In this document: one piece after another, positions 42 through 55,116 of the stretch
Layout: every line of letters begins with the position of its first letter
Position numbering within the stretch: position 1 is the stretch's first letter
Assembly (NCBI GenBank): GCA_035395685.1
Contig: DAOPBR010000002.1
Span: 84,488 to 148,487 of the forward strand
Direction: 5' to 3'
Source: Spirochaetota bacterium
GTDB taxonomy: Bacteria > Spirochaetota > UBA4802 > JAFGJZ01
Length of the DNA stretch: 64,000 bases
Notes under the pieces: model-generated
What the model was told of the DNA's origin: nothing
Databases searched by the model: none
The model's input: the letters and a program-made list of their open reading frames with translations, nothing else
Program-made: the position numbers and the translations under genes

Positions 42-2342
42 ATGAAAAGACTCAGAATCGGCCTCCAAACTGCGAGACTGGAATACGGGTACGGTGTAAA
101 ATTGTGGCAGGGAGCGCTGATTTCCGCAAAACAAAGAGATGCGGATCTAATAGTATTTCCAGGACGCAATCTGAATTCTCCCCATGGATATGATTATCAG
201 TATAACAGCATCTTCAGTTTGATGAATCTTGAAAATATTGATTCACTCATTCTGATTACAACACTTATCAGCAATTACGTTGACAAAGAAGAGTTAAACA
301 AATTCCGCATGAGATTTTCAGATCTTCCAATTATCAGTGTCGGAGCAAGGATTGAAAATACCCCCAGCATTCTCATAGACAACCGGTCCGGAATAAGAGA
401 TCTTGTAAGACATCAAATTGAAGTTCACGGTGCAAAAAGAATCGCATTTATAAAAGGGCCTGAAAATAATTGGGAAGCCGACGAAAGATATCAGGCATAC
501 AAGTTAGAGTTAGAAGCAAACGGAATTCCTTTTGATGAAAGACTAATTGGCAACGGAGATTTCACTTCTCACAGTGTAGCTCCCGCGATTGAGAAAATAC
601 TAAATTCAAACGATCTTCTTCCTGAAGTATTTATGTTTGCAAACGATGAAATGGCAATACATGGCATGAGGCTTCTCAGAGAAAAAGGCATAGATATTCC
701 CGGAGATACATCTATTACTGGATTTGATGATATACATGAGGCTGCATCGCAGTCTGTTCCGATAACCACAGTATCACAGCCCCTTGCGGAAATGATAGAC
801 CGCGCGGTAAATCTGGCTGTTGAACTTGCGCAGGGAAAGGAAAGCCCTTTTGAAACCATTCTTCCGACACACGCCGTAATCAGATCATCATGCGGATGCA
901 TTGCTCATTGCGTAAATGACGTTGTAAGTATAAGAAAAAACCAATTCATCAAAGATGATAAAGAAGATGTTTGCAGTCAGGTTCTCAAGATTCTTGATAA
1001 ATATCATTTTGAAAACTATTCCGATAAAAACACAAGGCGTACCAATGTCGAACAGGTAATTCGCAAGATTATTTCTTTATCATCCGGCAATGAAAACGAA
1101 ACAGCCGAAGAAAAAGACATTTATTCCTTTTTCAATTTTTTCAGCCGAATACTGATGGAAGAAGCTTCACAAGAACTTCCGCCGGAACATTGGGAGATTC
1201 CGCTTTCAATTCTATCTGAGTTAGTAAATTCCTCACGTGCAACAGATATTATGCTTGATCAGTTCAGATTTCTTCTGCGTGCATGCGCGGTTTTAACCCT
1301 TGATTCCGCGCTCAACATGCGCGTCGCGAATCATTTCGAATTTGAAAGAATAATTGAACGCATTCATGATTTAGAATATGATATCTCTTCTGTAGTCGAT
1401 TTGAATTCTCTCATACAAATTCTCGTAAGAAAGCTTCCAAGCGTGGGAATCAATACATTCATGCTGTCAAAATATAAAACCGATTGGGAACAGAAGCGCG
1501 ATGACGAATGGTCAGAACTCCCGGATCTGAAATGCGTGGCCTCTATGTGCGACAGCAGTGAAATGAATACACTTGAACTTAATGACAGCGGGGCATTAAA
1601 GTGGATTTCATCACCAGGCAGATCCGAAAATGACAGAAGCAGAGCTTTTGTCATTTATCCCCTGTTTTTCCGTGAAAATCATTACGGAATTATTGCCTAC
1701 GAACTTTCGCTTCAAAGCGGATTCATATACGAAAGTCTGACAACCCAGATATCAGGAGTTTTAAAACGTATATTTCTATATGACGCGAAAGATAAAGCCG
1801 AACAGGGGCTCCGTCAGGCTATGCGCGATCTTGAAATTTTTAATGCACAGCTTAGTCAGCTTTCAATAACGGATGAATTGACGGGATTATTCAACAGACG
1901 CGGTTTTATGAAAATGGCAGAACATTCATCCTTTCTCGCGCGCCAAATGGGACAGTCTTCGATGCTGATATTCGCAGATCTCGATAAACTCAAGAAAATC
2001 AACGACACTTACGGACATGATGAAGGCGACTGGGCGATAAAAACAGTTTCCGAAGCTTTGAAGAAGACATTCCGTTCCAATGATGTAGTTGCGCGTCTCG
2101 GCGGAGACGAATTTACAGTTTTCGCGACAAACATGAAAGAAGAACTTCTTCCAAGATCTCAGGCCCGTATAAATGATTTTTTAAAACAAAAATGCGCAGG
2201 AAAACAAAAGGAATATCAACTGACTATAAGCATCGGTCATGTTATATGCCCGGTTAACGAATCGCTAAGTATCGAAGAATATATGCAGATAGCCGACAGC
2301 CGATTGTATGAGCAGAAAAAAAAGAAACATGCTGGAAGCTGA
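42..2342 (+). CDS. Diguanylate cyclase: N-terminal periplasmic-binding-protein-like (LacI/sugar-binding fold) sensor, an unassigned middle region of about 280 aa, and a C-terminal GGDEF domain
   Basis: 766-aa ORF. The C-terminus carries the GGDEF signature (..DKLKKINDTYGHDEGDWAIK..RLGGDEFTVFA..). The N-terminal roughly 300 aa have a PBP type-I-like pattern (IAFIKGPENNWEADERYQAYK, GFDD) with an 'SSCGCI' motif. No signal peptide or TM segment is apparent, so the protein is predicted cytoplasmic. Confidence 0.85.
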   Translation: MKRLRIGLQTARLEYGYGVKLWQGALISAKQRDADLIVFPGRNLNSPHGYDYQYNSIFSLMNLENIDSLILITTLISNYVDKEELNKFRMRFSDLPIISVGARIENTPSILIDNRSGIRDLVRHQIEVHGAKRIAFIKGPENNWEADERYQAYKLELEANGIPFDERLIGNGDFTSHSVAPAIEKILNSNDLLPEVFMFANDEMAIHGMRLLREKGIDIPGDTSITGFDDIHEAASQSVPITTVSQPLAEMIDRAVNLAVELAQGKESPFETILPTHAVIRSSCGCIAHCVNDVVSIRKNQFIKDDKEDVCSQVLKILDKYHFENYSDKNTRRTNVEQVIRKIISLSSGNENETAEEKDIYSFFNFFSRILMEEASQELPPEHWEIPLSILSELVNSSRATDIMLDQFRFLLRACAVLTLDSALNMRVANHFEFERIIERIHDLEYDISSVVDLNSLIQILVRKLPSVGINTFMLSKYKTDWEQKRDDEWSELPDLKCVASMCDSSEMNTLELNDSGALKWISSPGRSENDRSRAFVIYPLFFRENHYGIIAYELSLQSGFIYESLTTQISGVLKRIFLYDAKDKAEQGLRQAMRDLEIFNAQLSQLSITDELTGLFNRRGFMKMAEHSSFLARQMGQSSMLIFADLDKLKKINDTYGHDEGDWAIKTVSEALKKTFRSNDVVARLGGDEFTVFATNMKEELLPRSQARINDFLKQKCAGKQKEYQLTISIGHVICPVNESLSIEEYMQIADSRLYEQKKKKHAGS

Positions 2343-2344
2343 TG

Positions 2345-2700
2345 GGATCAGTGATTGCATGGTGTTATGCAATCACTGGAAGGTGCTACAAGGCGAAGTC
2401 TTATAGAGTACGCTAAACTCGCAGGCAGTCGGAACGATCCCGACAACCGAGACGCTACAAATCCGGCAGGAAGCCGGTTTAAAAGCGTCTCGACAGGAGC
2501 GGCTTCCATGCGGATTTATTTTTGGAATCATTACGTTATAAGTTTTTCTCAGCGAACATCCTATTCGCTTCGATTATAACTTGAAATTAACTTAACACCT
2601 CAAACTCCAAGGTAATGCTTGCGTTTTCCCGCTGTGGTCTTCAACCACCTCGCGGGCTATCTTTCCGCATCCATGCGGAAAGTAAAATCAGCATCGCGGT
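2345..2700. repeat. Solo copy of the hairpin-rich mosaic repeat family (same family as 56.1-59.3 kb)
   Basis: The element begins right after the stop codon of the GGDEF gene. It contains these modules: a perfect hairpin gtgattgcat-ggtgtt-atgcaatcac (2351-2376); 'ctcgcaggcagtcggaacgatcccgacaaccgagacgct'; 'aaaagcgtctcgacag'; and a segment of about 130 nt homologous to the 58343/58803/59176 unit. That unit includes stems agcgaa/ttcgct, cccgctgtgg/ccacctcgcggg (2628-2656) and tttccgca-tcca-tgcggaaa (2662-2681). Confidence 0.7.
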
Positions 2701-3837
2701 AATGATTAATGATATTCCGCTTATTATAAACGAATGCTGATATCCGAGTGAATGACCTATTTTCGGATAGATCATCATTCCGAAGAGGCTTCCTGCAACC
2801 TGAGATATTCCCCATATCCCCATGTTTCCGCCGAGCTTCTTCTTATCAAAAAGCGAACCGAGTCCGTGAAGTGTTACAAGCAAAACCATTCCGTCGCTCG
2901 CGCCGTGAATCATTCTCATCGCTAATGAAAAATAATAGTTCGGATTTACTTTCAGTATCATCGTTAATCCTGAAAAAAATACGCCGATCATAAATAATGT
3001 CAGAAGCGACATCTTGCCCTTCTCTATTATTCCGGCAAAGAAAAATGCAGCTGCCGGAAACGCTAAAAACTCGCACATCATGTATACTGTTGTATCCACC
3101 ATTCCGGCGTGTAAATAATGCTTAAGAAACAACGCGTAGCATGTTTCTTCGGCTCCCCAGTGCGATGAAAAGAGAAATAGAATTATACAGAAAACAATTA
3201 TACCCTTGCCTGTTTTCGTCTTTCCGTATTCGCGCAGAGGAACTTTTGCCGTATGTGTTTTTTTAAGCTTGAACGCTATCAAAGATGAAACTGCGAAAAT
3301 CACGCATGCTGCAATCGTCATCAGCTTAAAATTGGAATTTTCGCCGTAAATAATCTGAAAAAGAAAAACCGAGGCCAATCCGATAAATCCGGCCGCTGCA
3401 GTCACAAACAAATATTTTACAAGATGCTTTTCAGAATGTTCACCGAGAAGACGCTTTATGAAAAGTGAATCGAAGCTTGACTGAAATAGACTTTTTCCGC
3501 AAGCGAAAAGCGCGAATACGGGAATAAGCACCGCAAAGCTTGAGCCGAAACTGAGCGCCGCGGCAAAACCCGACAGAAGAAGAAACGCAAATAGAATGAG
3601 TTTTCTTGATTCTACCCTGTCATTAATAATCCCTGAAGGAAAAGCGAGAAGAAAGCTTACAAGCGGAACCTCCGCCATCAATATCCCCGTATAGATTCCT
3701 GTAATACCTTTCTGCTCAAGAAATAGAGGAATAAACCATGAAAGCGGAAACACAACCGCCTTAAATATAAAAAAGGCCGAATACTCGGCAAAATTTTTCT
3801 TCATAATTGCACCGCCGCGTGCAATTATGAACCGCAT
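2641..3837 (-). CDS. MFS-type transporter (about 12 TM helices)
   Basis: Strongly hydrophobic 398-aa ORF with repeated TM-helix pattern. The likely start is the internal Met (MKKNFAEY, about 3804). The last 9 codons (MRKDSPRGG) plus the stop are encoded inside the mosaic repeat at 2641-2682. Confidence 0.7.
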   Translation of the reverse strand: MRFIIARGGAIMKKNFAEYSAFFIFKAVVFPLSWFIPLFLEQKGITGIYTGILMAEVPLVSFLLAFPSGIINDRVESRKLILFAFLLLSGFAAALSFGSSFAVLIPVFALFACGKSLFQSSFDSLFIKRLLGEHSEKHLVKYLFVTAAAGFIGLASVFLFQIIYGENSNFKLMTIAACVIFAVSSLIAFKLKKTHTAKVPLREYGKTKTGKGIIVFCIILFLFSSHWGAEETCYALFLKHYLHAGMVDTTVYMMCEFLAFPAAAFFFAGIIEKGKMSLLTLFMIGVFFSGLTMILKVNPNYYFSLAMRMIHGASDGMVLLVTLHGLGSLFDKKKLGGNMGIWGISQVAGSLFGMMIYPKIGHSLGYQHSFIISGISLIITAMLILLSAWMRKDSPRGG

Positions 3838-4030
3838 ATACTTTTGTCAAGAAACAATATGGTTTTCATTTGAAGAGTGCGGAAGGACTGAAATAAGTAC
3901 TCAAGGTACGTTAGGCATCTATGCCGTGTCTCTTCCGCACTGAAGCAGGGGATACTGACATTTAAACCTCGCAGTGCGCTTCTGCAATTAATATACAATT
4001 GACTGCAGAAACGTCAACCGTCGGATTAAA

Positions 4031-5008
4031 TTATTTTTCTTCTGAAGAAATTTTTTGCCAGATTTCCGGATTCTCCTGACCTATGCGCCAGAAAGCAATC
4101 TTCGCGGCCCCCGCATTTTTATATATGCCGAATTTTTTCCGAAGTGATTCCTCGTCATCATAATAAAGCGACACCTCAACAGTTTCGGTATACCTGACAT
4201 TCGGAATTCCGTCTTCAGTCCTGCTTATTGAAAGATTTTTCAACTTTATGAGATTTGCAACTCCGCGGTTGATGTAAGCCTTAGCCGGATTCTTATCAAT
4301 CCACGCCCTTCCGTAGAACGGAATTCCCATTACGAGCTTTTCTCGAGGTATATGTTTCGCGGCATAAGACGATACTTCCCGGCACCATGCGTTTGATGCA
4401 ACAGGTCCGGGTTTACTCGTGCTCCAGTGCTCGTCATAAGCCATAATAATGATGCGGTCTACTGATTTCGATATTTTTTCATAATCATATGCATCATCCA
4501 CTTTTTTTCTTCTCGCAGGAAGAGCAACACTCAAAGTCTTATCTTTAATTTTAGCCTTCAGCTCATAAAGAAAAGAAATGAAATTATCCCTGTCTGCCGG
4601 ACGCACAGCCTCAAAATCAATCTGAACCCCCGCAAACGGCTTCGACTTGACGGCAATGCTTTCTAAAAGTTCGGCTCTGAAGGGAAGATCCGGACGCAGA
4701 ACAAAGTGGGTCAGCGAATAATCCGAAGTTTCGGCTATAACAAGATGAACTCTTCTGCCGAAATGACTTATCGCTCCGACATCAGGAACGCCACGAAGAC
4801 TCCCGTCCAAAGAAACCTTTGCGGAAAAATATCCAATATCCGTAACCGGAGAATTTTTAGTAAAATATTTTTCTTCACCGCTCATCAGATATCCCCATAT
4901 TTCCGTAAAAAATACAGGAGACGCGGCTTCTGCTTCAATATCCGCACGGACGTAAGAAAACGCCAGGCAGAAGAAGCCTGTAACAGCACATAATAATAAT
5001 TTTTTCAT
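4031..5008 (-). CDS. Secreted glycoside hydrolase family 18-like protein (YdhD/chitinase-like fold)
   Basis: N-terminal signal peptide (MKKLLLCAVTGFFCLAFS). Contains the 'MGIPFYGRAW' motif typical of GH18 and a 'VQIDFEAV' catalytic-region-like segment. Confidence 0.5.
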   Translation of the reverse strand: MKKLLLCAVTGFFCLAFSYVRADIEAEAASPVFFTEIWGYLMSGEEKYFTKNSPVTDIGYFSAKVSLDGSLRGVPDVGAISHFGRRVHLVIAETSDYSLTHFVLRPDLPFRAELLESIAVKSKPFAGVQIDFEAVRPADRDNFISFLYELKAKIKDKTLSVALPARRKKVDDAYDYEKISKSVDRIIIMAYDEHWSTSKPGPVASNAWCREVSSYAAKHIPREKLVMGIPFYGRAWIDKNPAKAYINRGVANLIKLKNLSISRTEDGIPNVRYTETVEVSLYYDDEESLRKKFGIYKNAGAAKIAFWRIGQENPEIWQKISSEEK

Positions 5009-5068
5009 TTAAAGATCTTTAGAAATGGAATTCGGGGAGCTGCAAGAGCTCCCCGGGATTATCGTTGA

Positions 5069-5458
5069 TTACTTAGAAGTTCTTGAAGTAAACTTGTCCG
5101 GACCTGCAACGTCGATATTAACTACAGTTTTGATGTCTCCCTGAGAAACAACAAGCTCAGCAGCACCTTCAGCTTTAGCTCTAACAGCAGCTTTAGGACC
5201 TACTGGATTAACAAGAGTTATGATACCTGCGAATTTTTTGTCAACAGACCATGTAGGATTGATAACAACAGGATTACCTGCAGAATCAAGACCTTTAGCT
5301 GTAAAAGAGAAAACATTTCCTTTTTCAATCTGTGCAGATGAAGGATCTACAACGATTGTAGAAAGAACTCCTAGAGCAGTCTTAGGCTGTGCAGTTTCAC
5401 AAGCAGCGGCAACAGCAACAACTGTCAATAGAACCAAGCATACTAATGCTTTTTTCAT
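5069..5458 (-). CDS. Small lipoprotein with a bacterial Ig-like (Big_2-type) domain
   Basis: Signal peptide plus lipobox (..VAAACET). Beta-rich Ig-like sequence of 129 aa. Confidence 0.45.
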   Translation of the reverse strand: MKKALVCLVLLTVVAVAAACETAQPKTALGVLSTIVVDPSSAQIEKGNVFSFTAKGLDSAGNPVVINPTWSVDKKFAGIITLVNPVGPKAAVRAKAEGAAELVVSQGDIKTVVNIDVAGPDKFTSRTSK

Positions 5459-5584
5459 TTTAGTCTCCTTAATTTTGTCATTTAAAATTGGTTCGAAAAC
5501 CGAATAAACTATAGTAATAATCCCTTTATATTATTGTAAAGCATTTTATTGCCTTACATCTCAAAGAAATCAACTTATAAATTC

Positions 5585-6412
5585 TCACGGAACACTTTGA
5601 TTTAGAATCGAAAGAATCTGTTTGGCCGAATAACTGCTTTTCACATGATGTCTCCTTAAACAGAAATTATCCCTTGTTACGGGATTCATTCCGTATTCAG
5701 TGGTAAACGCTCTCTTATATCCGGCAAGACGCGCCATATTAACCAGATAAGAATTATAGTTCCCGTATGGAAAAGCAATAAACTCGCATTTATCTCCCGT
5801 TTCAAGAGAAATGATTCTTCTTGAAAGATACATTTCCTTAAATAATTTATGAAACGAATCAGGATTATCGGAAGACAATATCTTAACAAGATCGGCATGC
5901 GAATAAGTGTGTGATTCGACATCGATTCCGGATCTTTCGAGTTCGCGGATTTCTTCCCAGTTGATAAGGTTTTTTGAAGAAGGATGAACAAAATCGATAT
6001 AGATAAAAAGCGTTATAGGATAACCGAATTCTTTTGCAATCGGAATAAGTTTTTCATACATCGACTTGTATCCATCATCAAACGTTATTACGGCGGATTT
6101 TCGCTGGTACGGAGTCCGGCTTTCTATCCGGCTTACAAGATCACGAAGGGAAACTACATCAACCCCGCTCTCCCTTATAAGACGGAAATGCTCTCTCAGT
6201 TGTTCCGAAGTAACTGAAAACGGCCCCTTTCCGTCAATATTATGATATAGAAGAATGGGAACCGCAAATAACCGGTCAATTTTCTCTTTTTCACGCTCTT
6301 TGTACGATTCCGAGTATTCACCGCCCGGTTTTCCGGATGAATATATCCAAAATACCGCCAAACCCGAAAAAATAACAAAAAGCAGTGCTGTTAATAATCT
6401 AAATGTTTTCAT
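5585..6412 (-). CDS. Polysaccharide deacetylase (NodB homology domain), membrane-anchored
   Basis: Contains the TFDDG motif (VITFDDGYKSMYE), a His-containing motif (ESHTYSHADL), and an N-terminal TM anchor. Confidence 0.8.
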   Translation of the reverse strand: MKTFRLLTALLFVIFSGLAVFWIYSSGKPGGEYSESYKEREKEKIDRLFAVPILLYHNIDGKGPFSVTSEQLREHFRLIRESGVDVVSLRDLVSRIESRTPYQRKSAVITFDDGYKSMYEKLIPIAKEFGYPITLFIYIDFVHPSSKNLINWEEIRELERSGIDVESHTYSHADLVKILSSDNPDSFHKLFKEMYLSRRIISLETGDKCEFIAFPYGNYNSYLVNMARLAGYKRAFTTEYGMNPVTRDNFCLRRHHVKSSYSAKQILSILNQSVP

Positions 6413-6496
6413 GTTATATTATCGGACAAGAAAAATCCTTTACAATAATAATCGTCAAATAATAAACTTGTTTAGAAACTGACACCGGCAGGAAAC

Positions 6497-6856
6497 ATGA
6501 CACGACAGAACAGGCTTAATGAAGATCATATAGTAAACAGCATCATCGGTGAAGGCAGTGAATTCAAAGGCGAATTCAAGATAAACGGGCTTTTGCGAAT
6601 TGACGGCAAATTTACGGGAACTATTCAGACTGAAGGAAAGGTTCTGATCGGTCAGTACGGCGAAGCGCTTACCGACATTCAGGCTCGAGTTGTCATAGTG
6701 GGCGGAACCGTCAAGGGAAACATTCTCGCAAGCGAAAGAGTCGTACTTCTGGCATCCGGTGATGTTAAGGGAAATATCATCACTCCTTCAATCATAATGG
6801 AAGACGGAGTCAAATTCGACGGAAGCTGTGTAATCAACAAAGAACATCCGGTATAA
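6497..6856 (+). CDS. Bactofilin (CcmA-like polymer-forming cytoskeletal protein)
   Basis: 119 aa with a beta-helical repeat pattern (KINGLLRIDGKFTGTIQTEGKVLIGQYGE..VIVGGTVKGNILASERVVLLASGDVKGNI) characteristic of DUF583/bactofilin. Confidence 0.75.
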   Translation: MTRQNRLNEDHIVNSIIGEGSEFKGEFKINGLLRIDGKFTGTIQTEGKVLIGQYGEALTDIQARVVIVGGTVKGNILASERVVLLASGDVKGNIITPSIIMEDGVKFDGSCVINKEHPV

Positions 6857-6857
6857 T

Positions 6858-8269: not shown

Positions 8270-8276
8270 GGTTTAA

Positions 8277-9140: not shown

Positions 9141-9158
9141 TATTTACAGAAGGACATC

Positions 9159-11057: not shown

Positions 11058-11069
11058 AAGCTGATAAAT

Positions 11070-11920: not shown

Positions 11921-12621
11921 ACTATATAATAGACAGTCAATTATTCTGGGTGACGCTTACGATAGGACTCTTTATTCTTGGCAAATATCTAAGCGCAAAA
12001 ACAAAATTCATTCTTTTTAATCCCGTTCTTTTTTCTGTAACTGTTCTGATAATACTTCTCAAACTCGCAGGAATAGATTATTCATCTTATAAATCCAACA
12101 CGGACATCATATCATTTTTTCTCGCGCCGTCAGTTATCGCTCTTGCTCTTCCTCTTTACAAAGAACTTGAAGAAATAAAAAAAAATCATATGGCTATTTT
12201 TATTTCTCTCACGGCAGGAAGCCTTGCCGGTCTTCTAAGTGTTTCCGGAATATCACTTCTGCTCGGCGCCGATACGCTTACAGTAATATCTCTTCTTCCC
12301 AAATCTGTTACAAGCGCAATAGCGATAGAAGTCTCATCTAAAATCGGAGGAGAACCCTCACTTACTGCAGGATTTGTCGTAATCACCGGAATCATCGGCG
12401 CCGGCGGAGGACTCTTCTTTTTACGTTTGATAAATGAGCACAGCCATAAAGGCGGCGGACTCGCTATTGGATGCGCAGCTCATGCACTTGGAACCGCGGC
12501 AATAGCTGAAAAAGGCGAAACATACGCCGCTTACGGCGGACTTGCTCTATGCGTCACAGGAATAATAACTTCCCTTCTCGCTCCCCTTTTCGCTTATATC
12601 ATCAAATATTTATACGGATGA
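11917..12621 (+). CDS. LrgB/CidB-family membrane protein
   Basis: 234-aa polytopic membrane protein. 4-bp overlap with the LrgA-like gene, the classic lrgAB pair. Confidence 0.75.
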   Translation: MNYIIDSQLFWVTLTIGLFILGKYLSAKTKFILFNPVLFSVTVLIILLKLAGIDYSSYKSNTDIISFFLAPSVIALALPLYKELEEIKKNHMAIFISLTAGSLAGLLSVSGISLLLGADTLTVISLLPKSVTSAIAIEVSSKIGGEPSLTAGFVVITGIIGAGGGLFFLRLINEHSHKGGGLAIGCAAHALGTAAIAEKGETYAAYGGLALCVTGIITSLLAPLFAYIIKYLYG

Positions 12622-12704
12622 AGTTTTTCTATTCATTCACAGGCTTTGACTTAAAATAACAGAATCCTGTAATTTATTTAATTAATACAGGCACATCATA
12701 CAAT

Positions 12705-12739
12705 TTCACTAAACTCTTAAAAATCAAGAGTTTAGTGAA
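12705..12739. terminator. Perfect 14-bp inverted repeat (ttcactaaactctt-aaaaatca-agagtttagtgaa) between convergent genes; a bidirectional terminator or protein-binding palindrome
   Basis: Read directly from the sequence. It lies between the lrgB-like stop (12621) and the stop of the minus-strand flavodoxin-like gene (12752). Confidence 0.4.
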
Positions 12740-12751
12740 ATGCAGAATCTA

Positions 12752-14125
12752 TTATGCTTCTTTTACAATTTTAGAAAGACCGGCAATCATACCCTTCTTC
12801 ATATTTTTATTCATGCCGTTTCTGAGTGCAGGAATACGCATGAGTCTGGAAGCAAAAGGTATAACGGTTTTATTGATAAGCTTTTTTGTCGGAAAATCAA
12901 ACATCTTGTTCTTTTTATAGAACTTATAATCAGCGGAAAAAATAATCCGCATAAAGCCCCATATCTCGTCACGGAAAATTCTTCTGCCTCCGTTACCCAG
13001 AAAAGTATCCGGCGCAAGAAACTTCTCTTCATGAAAAAAAGCTGCGCGTTTAACAAGCAAATCAATATCCTTAGAAAAAGCCTGCGGATCATTTGATTCA
13101 GAAGAAACAATTCCGGCAATATTTGCTTGAGATACTTCTGAATATGCTTCAATGAACTGCCTTATATTCGGAATTGCGCTGAGTTCACCAACAACAACCC
13201 ATGCTGTCTGCTTCCCTGACAAACTCGGCATGTGATTTCTGTAAAAACTGCGGTCAAAGAACATCTTGAATCTTGAAGACAAGTATCTGTCGCGTATCTC
13301 ACCGACAAAAAATACGATATCGGCGTCCAGAATCATTTTCTGATGAAACGCACGGTAATCATCCGAACCGTCGTAAATGCACTCGCTTTTTAATCCGCAT
13401 CTGAGACATCCCAGACAGCCGCCTTTTATGTTAACTTCAGCAAGGTCTCCTGCAACAGCATTACTAAATCTTGCAGCAATTTGTAATGCTGTCTCTTTTA
13501 CTGAATTGTTACCGGTTGAATCATAGATAATACGCACACGGGCGTTTGAATCACTTACCGGAGTTTGTCCTCCAATTGAATTATAAGAAAAAGAGTTTTC
13601 CTTCAGTGTGTTAAATGCCCGTGATACAGGATTTTTCAACTCGCAATCGCTGAAAATATTTTTCGCAAAAGTAACAATCCCTTTTCTTATTTTTTCCTTC
13701 ATCAAATCATTCATCTCTGGAGTAAACGAAGCGCAGAAATTCATTCCCAAATCTTCGCTTACTGCGTGAATATAATTCTTGGCAATATGATCCTGATAAT
13801 GAATAGAAGTCATTATCGCTGCCGCATACTTTCCATTAAATGCATCAAAGGAATTCCTTTCGTAAACCAGTTCAATAAAACGCTTTATCTGATAAGGAAC
13901 AAGCAGAACATAGACCGGAAACGACCAAATAATAAAATCCGCTCTCCGAACAGAATCAATAACCGAATCAAAACGGGCTGAATCTTTTTCAATAACATTA
14001 ATCATCGAACCGACATTTTCGACACCCCATTCATGCTCCGGAAATTTCTTCATAAGAAATTTGGAATACTGCATAGTAACACTGTCTTCTCCCTTCGGAC
14101 TCCCGTGCAAAACCAATATCTTCAT
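12752..14125 (-). CDS. NAD(P)H-dependent oxidoreductase with two tandem flavodoxin-like domains
   Basis: The N-terminus (MKILVLHGSPKGEDS..ADFIIWSFPVY) is typical of the NADPH-dependent FMN reductase/flavodoxin-like fold. A second flavodoxin-like segment starts at VRIIYDSTGNN, and there is a Cys cluster GGCLGCLRCGLKSEC. 4-bp overlap with the upstream tetR. Confidence 0.55.
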   Translation of the reverse strand: MKILVLHGSPKGEDSVTMQYSKFLMKKFPEHEWGVENVGSMINVIEKDSARFDSVIDSVRRADFIIWSFPVYVLLVPYQIKRFIELVYERNSFDAFNGKYAAAIMTSIHYQDHIAKNYIHAVSEDLGMNFCASFTPEMNDLMKEKIRKGIVTFAKNIFSDCELKNPVSRAFNTLKENSFSYNSIGGQTPVSDSNARVRIIYDSTGNNSVKETALQIAARFSNAVAGDLAEVNIKGGCLGCLRCGLKSECIYDGSDDYRAFHQKMILDADIVFFVGEIRDRYLSSRFKMFFDRSFYRNHMPSLSGKQTAWVVVGELSAIPNIRQFIEAYSEVSQANIAGIVSSESNDPQAFSKDIDLLVKRAAFFHEEKFLAPDTFLGNGGRRIFRDEIWGFMRIIFSADYKFYKKNKMFDFPTKKLINKTVIPFASRLMRIPALRNGMNKNMKKGMIAGLSKIVKEA

Positions 14126-14772
14126 TTTTTTCCTCCTTTTTTTACTTTTTCAGAAATAATTGCATCACCGATCATATTCATCGATGTTTTGATAAAATCA
14201 TCAGCATTCACTTTGTAATACTTTTCAAGTGAGTCACCGCATGATGCGACAAAATCAAGAACACCGTTTGACGAACTCATGACAAATAAAGCCGCCGTAA
14301 CCGGATCTATATCTTTTCTCAAAGTTCCGTCTTTACGCCCCTCGACAAAACTGTCTGACATCAGCGAAAAAACTTCCGACCAGTATTTCTCAATTTTTAC
14401 CCTGTATTCACCGGGATGTTCGACGCCGCCGAAGCGCCGCATCGAAAGAATTTTAAAGCCGGCATTATATTCACGGTAAAAATGAACGTATGCATCGCCG
14501 ATTGCACTGATTTTATCCAATCCGGTCTTATTATTAACAAATACCTCGCTGAATATCCGGAAAAGGATTTCTGATGCTCTCAATATCACAGCTGCAAAAA
14601 GTTCATCCTTGGTTGGGAAATAGCTATAAACAGATTTTTTTGTAAATTCTGCCGAAGCTGCAATTTCATCCATCGTCGCCGATTCATATCCTCTTTCGAT
14701 AAACACTTTTTCAGCCGCATCAAGAATAAGCTCCCTTCGTGATTCTTTTTCCTTTTCGCGTCTCGACTTCAT
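14122..14772 (-). CDS. TetR/AcrR-family transcriptional regulator
   Basis: N-terminal HTH (ELILDAAEKVFIERGYESATMDEIAASAEFTKKSVYSYFPTKDELF). Confidence 0.85.
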   Translation of the reverse strand: MKSRREKEKESRRELILDAAEKVFIERGYESATMDEIAASAEFTKKSVYSYFPTKDELFAAVILRASEILFRIFSEVFVNNKTGLDKISAIGDAYVHFYREYNAGFKILSMRRFGGVEHPGEYRVKIEKYWSEVFSLMSDSFVEGRKDGTLRKDIDPVTAALFVMSSSNGVLDFVASCGDSLEKYYKVNADDFIKTSMNMIGDAIISEKVKKGGKK

Positions 14773-14814
14773 TTTTTCACCTTTATTATATTTATTTTAC
14801 TTTTCGTTTATCAG

Positions 14815-14831
14815 GTATACTATTAGTATAC
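14815..14831. promoter_or_regulatory. Near-palindromic GTATACtattaGTATAC site upstream of tetR; candidate TetR operator
   Basis: 17-bp near-perfect palindrome 43 bp upstream of the tetR start, in the divergent tetR/HK intergenic region. Confidence 0.35.
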
Positions 14832-14981
14832 TTTTTGTCAAGTGTTTTTAAATGATACGCCGTCTCTTTCTAAAATATTTTTGGATTGTAAAGTTGGTTC
14901 TTAAACCGGGGTATCTTTTATAATGGACTTTAGAATTATAATTGACCCATTCGTTAAAATAGTTCATAATACATTCAGGAA

Positions 14982-17582
14982 ATGATTTTACCAGGCTTCA
15001 GTTTTCTTCATGCGTATAAGCAGGGGGAAAACTTGATTATTCCGGAGCACCAAAGAGTGAGAACAAAAGCGGGCAAGCATACAATTGGATTTCTAACCTT
15101 TGATATAGCCGGCACCTACAATAACACCATGTGGCGCCATCTGTTTAATGCCGCCCGCAATAAAAATATTCAAATGATAACCTTCTGCGGCGGAGTCCTT
15201 CTTGACGAAAGCATTCTGCACCGGCAATGGAATAAAATATACGATCTGGCATCAACTCAACGCATCGATGGACTAATAGTTCTCTCGGCATCTCTGTCTC
15301 AAAGCTGCGGCAAAGACAAATTATCGGAATTTCTTAAACGATTTTCTCCCATACCGGTTGTCAGCATCGGAGTCGAACTGGCAAATGCCGTATCCATTCT
15401 TCTTGATAACAAAGAAGGAATGCGTCAAATCGTTAACCACATGCTTGACGAGCATGACACGGCCAAAGTGCTTTTTCTTGCCGGTCCCGAGAATAACGAG
15501 GAAGCTCATTTGCGTCTTTCTGTTTTCAAAGAAGAAATGCTTAGGCGGGGTATTCCGATTAATGATGAATTGATTCGCCATGTATCTTATAGATACGATC
15601 TGGCAATTGAAGCTGTTGAAGAAGTAATAAAATCAGAAATTGATTTCGATTCAATAATAGCAGTAAATGATGACAGCGCACTGGGAGCTTACGATGCACT
15701 TAAGAAACACGGAATAAAAGTTCCTCACGAAATTTCTCTCAGCGGATTTGACAACACGGATCAGTCGCAATCCAATGCCGTCCCCCTGACAACGGTTCAG
15801 CAGCCGCACAGGGAAATGGCAGAAAGCGCACTTGAAGCAATACATTCTATTCTATCAGGAGAAGCAGTTGAAAAACGCCGCTTGATACCGGCAAAACTTA
15901 TCGTGAGAAATTCATGCGGATGCATATTAAAGAATTATATCTCTCAAAAAGACTTCATAACAGGCCAAAACTCAAAACCTGAACTTATTAAAAATACTGT
16001 TTTTACCAAGCCCGAAAATCCTGAGATTCTAAATAAACATTTTGATGAATTCATAAAGAATGATGATATCTCAAAACTGCTTTATGCTTTTAATGAAGAA
16101 TTACTTACCTCGGCAGAAAGCAATAACAGTGACGAAGTTTTCACCGGATGGCACAATTTTCTAACAACATGGAGTGCGGATATTCTTGAATCATCAATTT
16201 ATAACAGCACTCAGAAAATTTCAGCAGCATCCTTCTTTGAAAGTGCACGCTTCATGATTATCGAAGCCGAAAAAAATCTGATTGCCGCAAAGCGGCTTGA
16301 AACACAGAAAAAAGATTATCTTTTTATCCTGTTCAGTTCATATTTTTCTCCGCTGATTGACATGAAAAACTATTTAAACCACATCTCAAGAGAATTACCG
16401 AAATTCGGAGTAACATCTTTTTTTATTTCATTATTTTGCGACAAAGAACTTTCCAAATCAAAAATAGTACTCTATTATCTGCCGAACGGAAACACATACT
16501 GGGATATTGACGGAAAAGAATTTCAAAGCAATAAAATTTTACCGGAAGAACTCATCACAGACAGCTCTTCGGATCTGGTAATCGAGCCTCTATTGAATTA
16601 TGAGGAAATCATCGGTTATTTCGTCTTTCAGCTGGCTGAACCGGCCGAAATAATTGAAAACATCCGGCAGCTCGTATCGAACTCATTTTTAAGCATACTG
16701 CTGGCGCAGGAAGTTATAAAAGACAAACAGCTCAAAACTCTTCTGCAGAATCTCGAAACAAAACAGGAACTTCTCGAAGAAGCCTATCATTCATTAAAGG
16801 AAAATCAGGAAAAAATGCTCGTCATTGACAAGATGGCCTCGCTCGGGAAAATGACTGCGGGTATTGCTCACGAAATGAATACTCCCGTAGCATCGATCCG
16901 CACTTCTCTCTCTGAAATATCAAGACTGACCGAAGAATATGATAAGTCAATCGGCGATCCTGATGTAAGCGATGAAGACCACCGCGAAATCGCCGCAGAA
17001 ATAAAACACTCGTTGAATCTGGCCGAAAAAGCAGCAGAAAAAGCAGCGGCTTTCGTTCACGGTATAAAATCGCAAACGCGCGATCTTGATCCGAAAGACC
17101 GTTTTAACTTCAATGCTGTAGAAGTAATACGCGAAGCACTTCTTCTGCTCAGTCATTCTTTAAAGCAGAACAAATGCGATATGGAATTGACATGTGAACG
17201 GGACTACATAGAAATTAACGGAGTTCCGGGGAGGCTTTCCCAGGTTATCACAAACCTTGTCAATAATTCAATCGAAGCATGTCCGAATGACGGAAGCGGC
17301 AGAATAGAAGTAAATATTACCGAAACAGAAAACGAAGTCATTCTGAGTGTAGCTGATAACGGCAGCGGAATAACCAAGGAAAACTTAACAAAAATATTCG
17401 ATCCGATGTTCACAACAAAACCTTTCGGTGTAGGAACAGGACTCGGTCTCACACTTGTTCACAACATAGTATGTGCAGAATTCGGCGGAAGCATTGAAAT
17501 AACTAACGGCATCAACGGCGGTACAAAGTTTATCATTCATCTCAAGTCAAATCAGGAGGATCACATTGGCTCGAAAATATAA
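14982..17582 (+). CDS. Sensor histidine kinase with an N-terminal cytoplasmic PBP-like sensor domain (paralogous to the ORF at 42-2342), an unassigned middle region, HisKA and HATPase_c
   Basis: H-box (GIAHEMNTPVASIRTS); N, G1 and G2 boxes (NLVNNSIEAC, DNGSGI, GTGLGL). The N-terminal PBP-like domain has a VRNSCGCI motif matching IRSSCGCI in ORF 42-2342. Confidence 0.85.
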   Translation: MILPGFSFLHAYKQGENLIIPEHQRVRTKAGKHTIGFLTFDIAGTYNNTMWRHLFNAARNKNIQMITFCGGVLLDESILHRQWNKIYDLASTQRIDGLIVLSASLSQSCGKDKLSEFLKRFSPIPVVSIGVELANAVSILLDNKEGMRQIVNHMLDEHDTAKVLFLAGPENNEEAHLRLSVFKEEMLRRGIPINDELIRHVSYRYDLAIEAVEEVIKSEIDFDSIIAVNDDSALGAYDALKKHGIKVPHEISLSGFDNTDQSQSNAVPLTTVQQPHREMAESALEAIHSILSGEAVEKRRLIPAKLIVRNSCGCILKNYISQKDFITGQNSKPELIKNTVFTKPENPEILNKHFDEFIKNDDISKLLYAFNEELLTSAESNNSDEVFTGWHNFLTTWSADILESSIYNSTQKISAASFFESARFMIIEAEKNLIAAKRLETQKKDYLFILFSSYFSPLIDMKNYLNHISRELPKFGVTSFFISLFCDKELSKSKIVLYYLPNGNTYWDIDGKEFQSNKILPEELITDSSSDLVIEPLLNYEEIIGYFVFQLAEPAEIIENIRQLVSNSFLSILLAQEVIKDKQLKTLLQNLETKQELLEEAYHSLKENQEKMLVIDKMASLGKMTAGIAHEMNTPVASIRTSLSEISRLTEEYDKSIGDPDVSDEDHREIAAEIKHSLNLAEKAAEKAAAFVHGIKSQTRDLDPKDRFNFNAVEVIREALLLLSHSLKQNKCDMELTCERDYIEINGVPGRLSQVITNLVNNSIEACPNDGSGRIEVNITETENEVILSVADNGSGITKENLTKIFDPMFTTKPFGVGTGLGLTLVHNIVCAEFGGSIEITNGINGGTKFIIHLKSNQEDHIGSKI

Positions 17583-19044
17583 AGTCAGCTCTGAGAAAGG
17601 CGGTGAAATACTTCTAGTGGATGATAATCTTGAATATCTCGAAGCAACACGCCTTTTACTTTCGCGCGAAGGACACAATGTCACAACCGCTCCGGGAGGA
17701 GCGGAGGCTCTGGCAATACTGGAAAAAAAATCTTTCGACTTGATTCTTCTCGACTATTTTATGCCCGGCATGACTGGAGAAGAATTTGTCTCAGAACTTC
17801 GCAAGAAAAATAAGATAATCCAGATAATACTTCAGACAGGATACGCATCAGAACATCCTCCGCGCGAACTGCTTCGAAGACTGGACATACAGGGATACTT
17901 CGATAAAAGTGAAGGCCCTGACAGGCTTCTGTTATGGGTTGAGGTAGGACTCAAATCCGCCAATTCAATAAAACAAATCAGCAAAAGCCGTGAAAGCCTG
18001 AACTATATTCTGAATGTAACACCGGATCTGCACCGCATTCAGCCATTAGAAGAACTTCTTAACGGAATTCTGATTCAGATTATGGGTCTTCTCGGTGTCG
18101 GGAATTCGTTTTTGGCTGTATTCGGCGACAACAACTCGATGAACGTTGAACAGCATGAAGATTCTTTTCTTGCGATGATGGATGATGAGGCGGGTCTTAT
18201 AATTCAGGCTGGAACAGGACGCTTCAATCCGAAACATCATATCAAAGATTTTCTTGAAGGAAATGAAACAGAAATCATAGGTAAAGCTCTTAACGAAGGA
18301 ATCGTTTATGTCAAAAACGGCAGAACGGCCATACCTCTAAGAGTCGCCGATTATAATGTAGGAGTCGTCTATGTAGACCGTGAAATAAGTCTCGAAGACG
18401 ACGTTTCGCTTCTAAGCGTATTCGCGAATCAGGCCGCTGTTGCAATTCATAATTCACGACTGCATCAAATCGCGACAATCGATCCTCTGACTGGAGTCTA
18501 TGTGAGAGGATTTTTCTTTCAATGCCTGCTTCGTGATCTTCGGGGAGCATTCCGCAACAACTACCCTCTCGTTCTAATGATGGTTGATATTGATAATTTA
18601 AAAATCATCAACGACGAACACGGTCACATCGCGGGGGATCAGGCAATTGCGCTTATAGGACGCTCTCTGCTTAAAGCAACCAGAAACACCGATGCGGTAG
18701 GCCGTTACGGCGGTGACGAATTTACAGTACTTTTGCCGCAGACAAATCTTGACTCCGTCGAGATTATTCTTAACCGTTTCTACCGCCAGCTTGAAGATAA
18801 TCCCATAAACGGCGACGCCGAACCTCTCACAATCAGATGCTCTATCGGAGTCGGCCTTCTTGATTCACCCGATTTTGATATCAACGAAATGCCGAAGCCC
18901 ATACCTCAGAGCTATTTTCAGAAGATGGCAGAGTCTTTTATCGATTTCGCAGATCATGTTTTATATAAAGCAAAGACAAACGGCAAAAACCGTTTTATGA
19001 TGTCTGAAAATACATTAAAATGGAACAAGGATTCTGATCAATGA
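17566..19044 (+). CDS. Response regulator with REC, GAF and GGDEF domains (diguanylate cyclase)
   Basis: REC domain (LLVDDN..DLILLDYFMPGMTGEE..), a GAF-like middle region, and a GGDEF C-terminus (RYGGDEFTVLLP). 17-bp overlap with the kinase gene. Confidence 0.9.
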   Translation: MARKYKVSSEKGGEILLVDDNLEYLEATRLLLSREGHNVTTAPGGAEALAILEKKSFDLILLDYFMPGMTGEEFVSELRKKNKIIQIILQTGYASEHPPRELLRRLDIQGYFDKSEGPDRLLLWVEVGLKSANSIKQISKSRESLNYILNVTPDLHRIQPLEELLNGILIQIMGLLGVGNSFLAVFGDNNSMNVEQHEDSFLAMMDDEAGLIIQAGTGRFNPKHHIKDFLEGNETEIIGKALNEGIVYVKNGRTAIPLRVADYNVGVVYVDREISLEDDVSLLSVFANQAAVAIHNSRLHQIATIDPLTGVYVRGFFFQCLLRDLRGAFRNNYPLVLMMVDIDNLKIINDEHGHIAGDQAIALIGRSLLKATRNTDAVGRYGGDEFTVLLPQTNLDSVEIILNRFYRQLEDNPINGDAEPLTIRCSIGVGLLDSPDFDINEMPKPIPQSYFQKMAESFIDFADHVLYKAKTNGKNRFMMSENTLKWNKDSDQ

Positions 19045-32112: not shown

Positions 32113-32545
<433 letters not shown>

Positions 32546-54872: not shown

Positions 54873-55116
54873 CTATAATTTGTTGAGAGTCAAATCCTCT
54901 TAACTTATTACAAACCATCGCTATCATCGTCAATACTAAAACCATGAACAAAGAACATGTTCGTCATAGTAATTTATAAACAAGAAAATTCTCACCAGTA
55001 ACCTCTCAGCGCCAAATTACTCGAATACTTTACAAAGGATATAACGTATTTTAGAAATTAATTATCAATATAACTTTTTTTTTGCAATCCGTTGAAAGCG
55101 GTCTGAAAATCAAGGC

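What the first reader, a model, noticed from the sequence alone, without database searches (positions are those of the whole stretch)
42..19044. Paralogous cytoplasmic PBP-like sensor modules wired to c-di-GMP output; four c-di-GMP proteins within 22 kb around flaB-1
ORF 42-2342 and ORF 14982-17582 share an N-terminal PBP type-I-like domain, including the signature (I/V)R(S/N)SCGCI, and then an unassigned region of about 280 aa that ends in a GAF-like segment. They diverge only in output: GGDEF versus HisKA-HATPase. The kinase is translationally coupled to a REC-GAF-GGDEF regulator, and an HD-GYP phosphodiesterase sits just beyond flaB-1. Neither sensor has a signal peptide or TM segment, so the 'periplasmic binding' fold is used intracellularly. 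The likely function is sensing a cytoplasmic small molecule (perhaps a sugar or metabolite) to control motility. The middle domain appears uncharacterised.
Basis: partly seen in the sequence, partly recalled or inferred. Interest (0 to 1): 0.5.

Follow-up and report, generated by a model that had tools for sequence, protein, structure and literature searches.

The report
LacI-core cytoplasmic sensor module, two paralogues
Two soluble signalling proteins in this spirochaete genome share one input module (a Lac-repressor-type ligand pocket, an invariant Cys-Gly-Cys, a haem-less globin-like bundle and a GAF-like domain) that is widespread in bacteria, fused to many outputs, and apparently unstudied.

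Summary
ORF 42-2342 and ORF 14982-17582 share a Pfam Peripla_BP_3/BP_1 domain (31% identity, E=9e-49). They also share a homologous middle region of about 300 aa with no Pfam match (profile-profile probability 96.7%, E=4e-10). One ends in GGDEF, the other in HisKA-HATPase. The kinase gene overlaps a REC-DUF3369-GGDEF regulator gene by 17 nt. Neither sensor has a TM segment.

Three points change the picture:
- The "periplasmic binding" domain is really a LacI/GalR repressor core without its HTH. It is therefore cytoplasmic by ancestry, and the LacI sugar-contact residues are conserved.
- In a pLDDT 89-92 AlphaFold model the middle region splits into a globin-like helical domain without a conserved His, a GAF-like domain and a signalling helix.
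- The module is not local. At least 1,598 clusters (50% identity) match at E<=1e-30. Their outputs include kinase, GGDEF, EAL, HD-GYP, MCP, STAS, SpoIIE, sigma-54 and HTH domains.

S-C-G-C is invariant in all 122 aligned members and is unexplained. Only the kinase-regulator pair is conserved in distant relatives. The flaB and HD-GYP neighbours are lineage synteny, so the motility link is inference. I found no characterised member, only a census-level mention. I rate it a new variant of a known kind, of moderate interest.

The parts
42..2342 (+). ORF1, 766 aa: soluble one-component diguanylate cyclase with the LacI-core / globin-like / GAF-like input module
   Evidence: The AF2 full-length model has pLDDT 91.8 and pTM 0.79.
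42..890 (+). ORF1 LacI/GalR-type effector-binding core (aa 1-283), with no HTH in front
   Evidence: Peripla_BP_3 at 7.9e-28. The top Foldseek PDB hits are LacI-family transcription-factor cores. LacI contact residues are conserved.
888..899 (+). Invariant S-C-G-C motif (aa 283-286), immediately after the last strand of the LacI core
   Evidence: C284 and C286 are 100% and G285 99% conserved in 122 aligned family members. The motif is present in 133 of 136 distant representatives.
906..1253 (+). ORF1 globin-like all-helical domain (about aa 289-404; also borrows the following long helix), no conserved His
1254..1721 (+). ORF1 GAF-like domain (about aa 405-560)
1722..1868 (+). ORF1 long signalling helix (aa 561-609) leading into GGDEF
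   Evidence: DSSP on the AF2 model shows helix 561-609.
1866..2327 (+). ORF1 GGDEF domain. GGDEF motif at aa 687-691 and RxxD I-site at aa 678-681.
   Evidence: Pfam 5.3e-37. Motifs located.
14982..17582 (+). Soluble sensor histidine kinase, 866 aa (the real start may be 17 codons downstream, as in P0121)
15078..15914 (+). Kinase LacI/GalR-type core (aa 33-311)
   Evidence: Pfam. BLASTP to ORF1 gives E=9e-49.
15915..15923 (+). Kinase CGC motif (aa 312-314)
15924..16790 (+). Kinase middle region (aa 315-603), homologous to the ORF1 globin-like + GAF-like region
   Evidence: A local HMM of the family's middle region scores 4.5e-34. hhalign probability is 96.7%.
16842..17549 (+). Kinase HisKA (H-box HEMNTP, aa 630-635) and HATPase_c (N, G1 and G2 boxes present)
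17553..17558 (+). AGGAGG Shine-Dalgarno sequence for the regulator, located inside the 3' end of the kinase gene
17566..19044 (+). Response regulator REC (aa 15-122) + DUF3369 GAF-like (128-301) + GGDEF (303-476; GGDEF and RxxD intact). TTG start; overlaps the kinase stop by 17 nt.
   Evidence: The same overlapping pair is found in five homologous loci.
19041..19532 (+). GNAT acetyltransferase gene, overlapping the regulator stop by 4 nt. Probably the last gene of the kinase operon in this lineage only.
19667..20515 (-). Flagellin (FlaB-type, 282 aa). A neighbour, not shown to belong functionally.
21089..22246 (+). HD_5/HD-domain protein (HD-GYP class). HD and HHE are present; 'GYP' reads GYY. 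A neighbour, not shown to belong functionally.

Best explanation
Both proteins are soluble cytoplasmic sensors built on the same N-terminal input module. That module has four parts: a LacI/GalR repressor-type ligand-binding core without its DNA-binding head; an invariant Ser-Cys-Gly-Cys; a haem-less globin-like helical domain followed by a GAF-like domain; and a long signalling helix.

ORF1 couples the module directly to a GGDEF diguanylate cyclase. The paralogue couples it to a HisKA/HATPase kinase, which phosphorylates the co-translated REC-DUF3369-GGDEF regulator.

Shown:
- the domain composition;
- the homology of both parts between the two paralogues;
- intact catalytic motifs;
- the conserved kinase-regulator gene pair;
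- the absence of export signals.

Inferred:
- The LacI-type pocket binds a small polyhydroxylated cytoplasmic metabolite (a sugar, sugar phosphate or similar).
- Pocket closure is relayed through the globin-like/GAF-like tandem to the coiled-coil helix of a dimer.
- This switches c-di-GMP synthesis on or off, so that c-di-GMP level tracks carbon or metabolite status.

An effect on motility is expected only from general knowledge of c-di-GMP in spirochaetes.
For: Domains and paralogy.

LacI-repressor nature of the core:
- phmmer against PDB finds only LacI-family regulators.
- Foldseek on the full model puts CelR-cellobiose, LacI ancestors, AscG, RbsR, CcpA and PurR on top.

Pocket conservation, LacI residue to ORF1 residue:
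- D149 to D113 (69% D, 20% E)
- R197 to R149 (100%)
- W220 to F174 (94%)
- N246 to N201 (92%)
- D274 to D229 (100%)
- Q291 to Q246 (72%)
These residues are identical in ORF1 and the kinase except at the aromatic position, where the kinase has Tyr.

Sugar link for the core subtype: a genuine LacI-family regulator with the same terminal SCGC (P0143) sits in a sugar-utilisation locus with GH4, GH2, GH3 and an SBP.

Fold of the middle region:
- The AF2 model has pLDDT 88.9.
- Short-form homologues lack only the globin-like helices, which confirms two separable domains.

Catalytic motifs are intact.

Module behaviour: the same input sits in front of GGDEF, HisKA/HATPase, HisKA_3, HD-GYP, EAL, GerE and AraC HTH, SpoIIE, STAS, MCPsignal and Sigma54_activat. 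This is what a generic sensor module does.

Gene pair: the kinase and a REC-DUF3369 regulator overlap in all five other loci examined.
Against: - No ligand is identified.
- None of the examined loci of module-bearing homologues shows a conserved sugar-transport or catabolic neighbourhood. Two have glycoside hydrolases nearby: the window itself has GH18, and P0032 has GH8 and GH17.
- In LacI repressors the allosteric signal leaves through the N-subdomain towards the N-terminal head, whereas here the output hangs on the C-terminus. A different relay must exist and is not demonstrated.
- The conserved pocket residues are common to the whole LacI/GalR family, so they do not indicate ligand specificity.
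- All structure is predicted, and I could not inspect coordinates.
- Foldseek on the middle-region model found only weak GAF hits (best E=2.4e-3) and no globin.
- There is no sequence-level match to Rsbr_N, Globin or Protoglobin.
Confidence: 0.6

Rival explanations
1. The LacI-type core is mainly a dimerisation scaffold. The real input is sensed elsewhere in the module: by the invariant Cys-Gly-Cys (thiol redox switch or a metal or Fe-S site bridging a dimer) and/or by a ligand or cofactor in the globin-like or GAF-like domain.
For: - SCGC is the only family-specific invariant motif. C284 and C286 are 100% conserved in 122 sequences, and the motif is in 133 of 136 distant representatives.
- ORF1 orthologues add a third Cys, giving CGCxxxC.
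- The globin-like fold matches sensor domains: the RsbR N-domain, fatty-acid-binding pXO2-61, photoglobin 8j2w and phycobiliproteins.
- The output is attached to the C-terminus, next to the CGC, not to the N-subdomain that moves in LacI.
Against: - The pocket residues R149, D229 and N201 are as invariant as the cysteines. That is hard to explain for a pure scaffold.
- No other conserved Cys or His exists in the middle region to complete a metal or haem site.
- The SCGC also occurs at the very C-terminus of an ordinary LacI-family repressor (P0143), which has no downstream domains.
- The globin-like part is poorly conserved (19% mean column identity) and is dispensable in short forms.
Confidence: 0.2
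2. The four genes form a dedicated motility-control cluster around flaB. The sensors, the regulator and the HD-GYP enzyme are co-localised because they jointly regulate flagellin or flagellar function.
For: - Physical proximity in the window.
- The kinase-regulator-(glyoxalase)-GNAT-flaB-HD_5 order is kept in an 85%-identical relative.
- c-di-GMP controls motility in spirochaetes (general knowledge).
Against: - In four loci with 41-43% identical kinases, only the kinase-regulator pair is kept. No flagellin or HD-GYP gene is nearby.
- ORF1 is 12.6 kb away, behind housekeeping genes on both strands.
- ORF1 orthologues and more distant GGDEF-type homologues sit in unrelated contexts.
- flaB is on the opposite strand, and a second flagellin gene lies 30 kb away.
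Confidence: 0.1
3. The GAF-like domain is a cyclic-nucleotide receptor, as in the Leptospira cAMP-activated cyclase Lcd1. The proteins would then integrate cNMP signals rather than sugars.
Against: - Sequence similarity to GAF families is below every Pfam threshold. Identity to cNMP-binding GAFs is 9-13%.
- The conserved residues of this domain (P540, L541, F542, G549, E554, Y563) are mostly core or turn residues.
- GAF is a generic fold that is also used purely as a transducer.
Confidence: 0.08

Closest known systems
LacI/GalR-family repressor effector-binding cores (e.g. CelR-cellobiose 5ysz, E. coli LacI 1efa, AscG 3brq, RbsR 9ny7, CcpA, PurR)
   Same: Same fold and clear sequence homology: 21-28% identity, phmmer E down to 1e-27, Foldseek E about 1e-18. 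They are cytoplasmic. The inducer-contact Arg, Asn, Asp and aromatic residues are conserved, as are the HL...GH and vR.S motifs.
   Different: - There is no N-terminal HTH_LacI.
- The chain continues C-terminally through SCGC into about 300 aa of sensor/transducer domains and an enzymatic output.
- The signal must therefore exit at the opposite end from LacI.
RsbR N-terminal non-haem globin (stressosome; 3zta) and the pXO2-61 / BA2291 sporulation sensor-globin domain (3pmc)
   Different: - No detectable sequence similarity. Foldseek did not recover them.
- Here the domain is internal, sandwiched between a LacI core and a GAF-like domain, and is absent from short-form relatives.
GAF-GGDEF cyclases such as Leptospira Lcd1, and GAF-regulated kinases and phosphodiesterases
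   Different: The GAF-like domain fails every Pfam GAF threshold. There is no evidence for cNMP binding. It is preceded by two further domains.
Borrelia Hk1-Rrp1, and Bacteroides hybrid two-component sensors with periplasmic PBP domains (from memory, not tested here)
   Same: A kinase with a solute-binding-type sensor controls a REC-GGDEF regulator in a spirochaete (Hk1-Rrp1). A type I PBP domain acts as the sugar sensor of a kinase (Bacteroides).
   Different: Those sensors are periplasmic, anchored by TM segments, and belong to transport-type SBP families. Here the sensor is cytoplasmic and repressor-type, and is followed by globin-like and GAF-like domains.
'Peripla_BP' domains listed among uncharacterised sensory domains of c-di-GMP enzymes (Randall et al. 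2022, PMC8846402)
   Same: The same fusion class (LacI-type PBP + GGDEF/EAL/HD-GYP) is noted in a census and suggested to bind sugars.
   Different: It is a census-level mention only. The conserved middle region, the CGC motif and the wider output range are not described there.

Membership tests
LacI/GalR effector-binding domain (type I PBP fold, Pfam Peripla_BP_3 / Peripla_BP_1) | Sequence match above the curated Pfam threshold | tested here: met
   ORF1 scores 98.1 bits against a cut-off of 26.5. The kinase scores 80.8 bits.
LacI/GalR effector-binding domain (type I PBP fold, Pfam Peripla_BP_3 / Peripla_BP_1) | Two-lobed fold that superposes on solved LacI-family cores | tested here: met
   Foldseek on the AF2 model gives TM (target-normalised) 0.7-0.88 and E 1e-15 to 6e-19 to CelR, LacI, AscG, RbsR, CcpA and PurR. 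This rests on a predicted model.
LacI/GalR effector-binding domain (type I PBP fold, Pfam Peripla_BP_3 / Peripla_BP_1) | Conserved ligand-contact residues in the inter-lobe cleft | tested here: met
   The equivalents of LacI D149, R197, W220, N246, D274 and Q291 are conserved at 69-100% across 122 members.
LacI/GalR transcription factor (whole protein) | N-terminal HTH_LacI DNA-binding domain | tested here: not met
   There is no PF00356 match. The core starts at residue ~1-6 of ORF1, and an in-frame stop lies upstream.
Periplasmic solute-binding protein | Signal peptide, lipobox or TM anchor for export | tested here: not met
   Maximum 19-residue Kyte-Doolittle mean is 1.30 for ORF1. For the kinase it is 1.74, and that stretch lies inside a core beta-strand. 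N-termini are polar, and stops lie upstream.
GGDEF diguanylate cyclase | GGDEF domain with an intact GG(D/E)EF active site; RxxD I-site optional | tested here: met
   ORF1 has RSND-x5-GGDEF (aa 678-691). The regulator has RNTD-x5-GGDEF (aa 373-386). Catalysis itself is not testable with these tools.
HisKA-type sensor histidine kinase | H-box His plus the N, G1 and G2 boxes of HATPase_c | tested here: met
   HEMNTP (630-635), NLVNNS, DNGSG and GVGTGL are present. HisKA scores 27.6 bits against a cut-off of 26.9. HATPase_c scores 86.5 bits.
GAF domain | Sequence match to a Pfam GAF family above threshold | tested here: not met
   ORF1 and the kinase middle regions give no hit. Only 1-2 of 44 homologues reach E 0.007-0.04.
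GAF domain | GAF fold (antiparallel sheet backed by helices, flanked by long N- and C-terminal helices) | tested here: met
Globin-coupled sensor / sensor globin | Globin-fold helical sandwich | tested here: inconclusive
Globin-coupled sensor / sensor globin | Conserved proximal His that ligates haem | tested here: not met
   No His or Cys reaches 60% conservation in aa 287-560. If it is a globin, it is a non-haem one.
HD-GYP c-di-GMP phosphodiesterase (gene 21089-22246) | HD metal-binding residues plus the HHExxDGxGYP signature | tested here: inconclusive
   HD_5 scores 56.9 bits. HD (162-163), HHE (216-218) and DIYDAL are present, but the signature reads HHEKFNNNGYY, so both the Asp-Gly and the Pro of GYP are replaced.
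Cognate two-component pair | Adjacent, co-oriented kinase and regulator genes, conserved across relatives | tested here: met
   There is a 17-nt overlap with AGGAGG in the window. The same kinase followed by a REC-DUF3369 regulator, with overlapping genes, is found in five other loci at 41-85% identity. Phosphotransfer itself is not testable here.

The most novel reading that the evidence does not exclude
The family may be a new class of dual-input cytoplasmic receptor. In this reading, the invariant Cys-Gly-Cys at the exit of the LacI core forms a redox-active or metal/Fe-S site across the dimer, together with the haem-less globin-like domain. That site would gate or integrate the sugar signal from the LacI pocket before it reaches the output. 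One module would then combine carbon status and redox or metal status, and would be reused in thousands of kinases, cyclases, chemoreceptors and transcription factors.
Probability: 0.15. Interest if true: 0.7.

Novelty: new variant of a known kind. Interest (0 to 1): 0.45.

Why it matters
If the reading is right, bacteria from at least four phyla reuse the Lac-repressor ligand pocket as a plug-in cytoplasmic sensor. It would feed kinases, c-di-GMP enzymes, chemoreceptors, partner-switching modules and transcription factors, not only DNA-binding repressors. That would give a direct route from intracellular sugar or metabolite pools to second-messenger and two-component signalling.

The family has at least 1,598 clusters at E<=1e-30. 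No curated model covers its 300-aa transducer region, and I could find no characterised member.

For this spirochaete, it predicts two parallel metabolite-to-c-di-GMP inputs.

In practice, the module could become a source of new small-molecule-responsive switches. LacI-family pockets are well understood and can be engineered.

Tried and rejected
- Direct BLASTP of the two proteins shows only the PBP part. Homology of the middle regions needed intermediates and profiles.
- A sequence profile of the middle region against PDB returned only designed helical repeats and noise. Pfam scans of 44 middle regions gave nothing above threshold.
- The afdb50 fold library was unavailable.
- The search for related loci with family alignments failed twice because no stretch was conserved enough. 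With ORF1 alone it returned only three loci from closely related Spirochaetes MAGs. I have no named-genome phyletic profile.
- The listing of cluster members gave no organism names for distant representatives.
- I read the gene neighbourhoods of nine homologues hoping for a conserved sugar operon and found none. Context does not reveal the ligand.
- I asked whether H124 and H129 could form a Cys2His2 site with the CGC.
- I decided not to spend the third large homology search on the globin-like sub-alignment. At 19% column identity a word-indexed search would mostly re-find the same family.
- Five literature searches found no characterised member. A sixth led only to a census-level mention.

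Full report
**1. What is in the sequence**

The ORFs exist at the coordinates given: 42-2342 (+), 14982-17582 (+), 17566-19044 (+), 19041-19532 (+), 19667-20515 (-) and 21089-22246 (+). Pfam gives these assignments:
- ORF1: Peripla_BP_3/BP_1 at aa 17-284 and GGDEF at 609-762.
- Kinase: Peripla_BP_3/1/4 up to aa 312, HisKA at 621-676 and HATPase_c at 748-856.
- Regulator: REC, DUF3369 and GGDEF.
- The remaining three: a GNAT acetyltransferase, a flagellin, and an HD_5/HD protein.

The two sensors align at 31% identity over 282 aa (E=9e-49). The alignment stops at VIRSSCGCI / IVRNSCGCI.

Hydropathy shows no TM-grade segment, and in-frame stops lie just upstream of both starts. Both proteins are therefore soluble.

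The regulator starts at a TTG, 7 nt after an AGGAGG, and overlaps the kinase stop by 17 nt. The GNAT gene overlaps the regulator stop by 4 nt.

The catalytic motifs are intact:
- GGDEF with an RxxD I-site in both cyclase domains.
- H, N, G1 and G2 boxes in the kinase.

The HD-domain protein has HD and HHE, but its GYP reads GYY.

The window comes from an uncultured Spirochaetota MAG. The ORF1 protein is encoded identically in GCA_035377685.1 and GCA_035367765.1, with the same neighbouring genes.

**2. The middle region**

BLASTP finds nothing between the two middle regions. They are homologous all the same:
- Each hits a shared set of intermediates. The kinase middle hits ORF1 orthologues directly, at 3.6e-8 and 3.9e-6.
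- hhalign of the two orthologue-group profiles gives probability 96.7%, E=4.2e-10, over 211 columns.
- An HMM built from the family's middle region scores 4.5e-34 on the kinase. It hits no other ORF in the 64-kb window.

No curated family covers this region:
- Pfam gave weak GAF matches in 1-2 of 44 homologues only.
- NCBIfam matched only the LacI-type and output parts.
- PDB sequences gave noise.

The structure predictions agree with each other:
- An AlphaFold2 model of ORF1 aa 286-606, built on 44 homologues, has mean pLDDT 88.9.
- The full-length model has pLDDT 91.8 and pTM 0.79.
- Both show five helices (aa 289-397), then a very long helix (405-449), an alpha/beta domain (454-554), and a second long helix (561-609) that runs into GGDEF.

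No His or Cys is conserved in this region. If it is a globin, it is a non-haem one.

Foldseek recovered only weak GAF hits. I therefore treat the GAF-like assignment as solid at fold level, and the globin-like assignment as probable but resting on a single method.

Independent support for two separable domains comes from homologues of 640-700 aa. They keep the LacI core, the CGC, the long helix and the GAF-like part, but lack exactly the first ~125 profile positions, which are the short helices.

**3. The 'periplasmic binding' domain is a Lac-repressor core**

By sequence, the nearest solved proteins are all LacI/GalR-family regulators: LacI ancestors, CelR, CcpA, AscG, LacI, RbsR and PurR. 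By fold the same proteins come out on top.

The inducer-contact positions are conserved as follows:

| LacI residue | ORF1 residue | Conservation in 122 members |
|---|---|---|
| D149 | D113 | 69% D, 20% E |
| R197 | R149 | 100% |
| W220 | F174 | 94% |
| N246 | N201 | 92% |
| D274 | D229 | 100% |
| Q291 | Q246 | 72% |

These residues are identical in ORF1 and the kinase, apart from Tyr for Phe at the aromatic position in the kinase.

This supports a pocket that can still bind a polyhydroxylated ligand. It says nothing about which ligand.

Cytoplasmic location is therefore expected, not surprising.

**4. The Cys-Gly-Cys**

Across 122 aligned family members the invariant residues are H124, H129, R149, D202, G227, D229, R281, C284, C286 and G549. 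All but the two cysteines and G549 are generic LacI-family positions.

Other facts about the S-C-G-C:
- It follows the last strand of the core directly.
- It is present in 133 of 136 distant representatives that carry the core.
- It is present in the short forms.
- In ORF1 orthologues it is extended to CGCxxxC.
- It is absent from 14 of 15 ordinary LacI-family repressors retrieved.
- The fifteenth repressor (P0143, HTH_LacI + core, 345 aa) ends ...RRSCGCIEQIDF. It lies in a sugar-utilisation locus with GH4, GH2, GH3 and an SBP.

I cannot explain the motif. A thiol or metal site is possible but untested.

**5. The module is a large, modular family**

A search with ORF1 aa 1-609 found the core plus a middle region of 290-330 aa fused to many outputs:
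- GGDEF
- HisKA/HATPase, with or without REC
- HisKA_3
- GerE HTH
- HD-GYP
- SpoIIE
- extra GAF domains

The sources are named Spirochaetota, Treponemataceae, Brevinematales, Lachnospiraceae, Saccharofermentans, Thermoclostridium, Polyangia, Deltaproteobacteria and Lentzea. The kinase search added Ruminococcaceae.

An exhaustive HMMER search with the middle-region profile against 1.84 billion cluster representatives gave these counts:

| E-value cut-off | Clusters |
|---|---|
| <=1e-3 | 5,804 |
| <=1e-10 | 3,733 |
| <=1e-30 | 1,598 |

Some of the weaker hits may be generic GAF or coiled-coil matches.

Of the top 144 new representatives, 136 carry the LacI core upstream. The other eight look N-terminally truncated.

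Pfam scans of 48 representatives add four more outputs: MCPsignal, STAS, EAL and Sigma54_activat. They also show AraC-type HTH and many PAS/GAF extensions.

The two window proteins are thus members of a generic input module, not a local curiosity.

A second genome (a 2.74-Mb contig) carries both a GGDEF-type copy (P0032) and a kinase-type copy (P0128).

**6. Gene context**

The kinase is followed by an overlapping REC-DUF3369 regulator gene in all five other loci examined, at 41-85% identity. Three of those regulators carry GGDEF and two do not.

The order GNAT, flaB, HD_5 is kept only in the 85%-identical relative. ORF1 is 12.6 kb upstream, behind housekeeping genes. Its orthologues and more distant GGDEF-type homologues sit in unrelated contexts.

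No sugar operon is consistently adjacent.

So the 'four c-di-GMP proteins around flaB' is a true count but not a conserved functional cluster. The motility link is inference from general c-di-GMP biology.

**7. Mechanism**

Confidence in the following model is 0.6:
1. A cytoplasmic metabolite binds the LacI-type cleft.
2. The change is passed through the globin-like/GAF-like tandem to the long helix of a dimer.
3. This sets the activity of the GGDEF domains (ORF1), or of the kinase, which then phosphorylates the REC-DUF3369-GGDEF regulator.

Composition, homology, motifs and the gene pair are shown. Ligand binding, the relay and the physiological output are inferred.

The main weakness concerns the route of the signal. 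In LacI the signal leaves through the N-subdomain, whereas here the output is C-terminal, next to the CGC. This keeps open the rival that the core is a scaffold and the CGC or the downstream domains do the sensing (confidence 0.2).

**8. Comparison and novelty**

The parts are known folds. The nearest functional analogues are:
- LacI repressors, for the pocket.
- RsbR and the pXO2-61-type sensor globins.
- GAF-GGDEF enzymes such as Lcd1.
- Hk1-Rrp1 of Borrelia, for the kinase to REC-GGDEF logic.

A 2022 census of c-di-GMP sensory domains lists the LacI-type 'Peripla_BP' domain among uncharacterised inputs that 'may bind ... sugars' (PMC8846402).

I found no paper that describes the conserved middle region, the CGC or a characterised member. 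The literature library is incomplete, so prior description elsewhere cannot be excluded.

My verdict is a real, ordinary-looking but apparently undescribed variant of a cytoplasmic sensor module. It is of moderate interest, and the unexplained invariant CGC is its most intriguing feature.

Noticed in passing
window 32110-32540 (-): An isolated fragment strongly resembles the 3' third of bacterial 23S rRNA (Rfam LSU model positions ~1940-2090 and ~2640-2925, 190 bits). It has a 548-position internal deletion that removes the peptidyl-transferase region. It lies immediately downstream of a GH1 gene (32547-33881 -), with no rRNA operon nearby. It could be an rRNA pseudogene remnant or a MAG assembly chimera.
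   Followed up: partly
window 21089-22246 (+): The HD-GYP-class protein keeps HD (aa 162-163), HHE (216-218) and DIYDAL. Its signature reads HHEKFNNNGYY, so GYP has become GYY and the Asp-Gly is lost. Its first ~120 aa have no Pfam match. Its activity as a c-di-GMP phosphodiesterase is uncertain.
   Followed up: partly
window 51823-52671 (+): A second FlaB-type flagellin gene (282 aa, Flagellin_N + Flagellin_C) lies about 31 kb from the first. Neither sits in a flagellar operon.
   Followed up: no
window 2641-6412 (-): Just downstream of ORF1, on the opposite strand, there are four genes: an MFS transporter (2641-3837), a GH18 family protein (4031-5008), a small secreted or lipoprotein-like ORF (5069-5458), and a polysaccharide deacetylase (5585-6412). 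This could be a chitin/GlcNAc or peptidoglycan-glycan handling set. The adjacency to ORF1 is kept in close relatives only.
   Followed up: partly
P0143 (locus L016 8001-9038): An ordinary 345-aa LacI-family repressor (HTH_LacI + core) ends in ...LVIRRSCGCIEQIDF and sits in a sugar-utilisation locus. The SCGC motif therefore predates, or is independent of, the fusion to the sensor domains.
   Followed up: partly
loci L006 8537-9454 and L015 6816-7730: In two homologous kinase loci the overlapping regulator is only REC + DUF3369 (~305 aa), with no GGDEF domain. The conserved partner of this kinase family is thus REC-DUF3369, and the c-di-GMP output is optional.
   Followed up: no
homologues P0048, P0050, P0053, P0058, P0074 and others (640-700 aa): A short-form subfamily keeps the LacI core, CGC, GAF-like domain and output, but lacks the globin-like helices. 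It offers a natural deletion series for testing what the globin-like domain does.
   Followed up: partly
window 54001-56000: The lowest G+C in the window (0.319, against about 0.40 elsewhere) coincides with strongly negative GC skew. Between about 55.8 and 59.3 kb there is no ORF of 150 aa or more. Not examined.
   Followed up: no
window 36161-37600 (+): A MocR-type regulator (GntR HTH fused to a class I/II aminotransferase-like domain). Ordinary, noted only for completeness.
   Followed up: no
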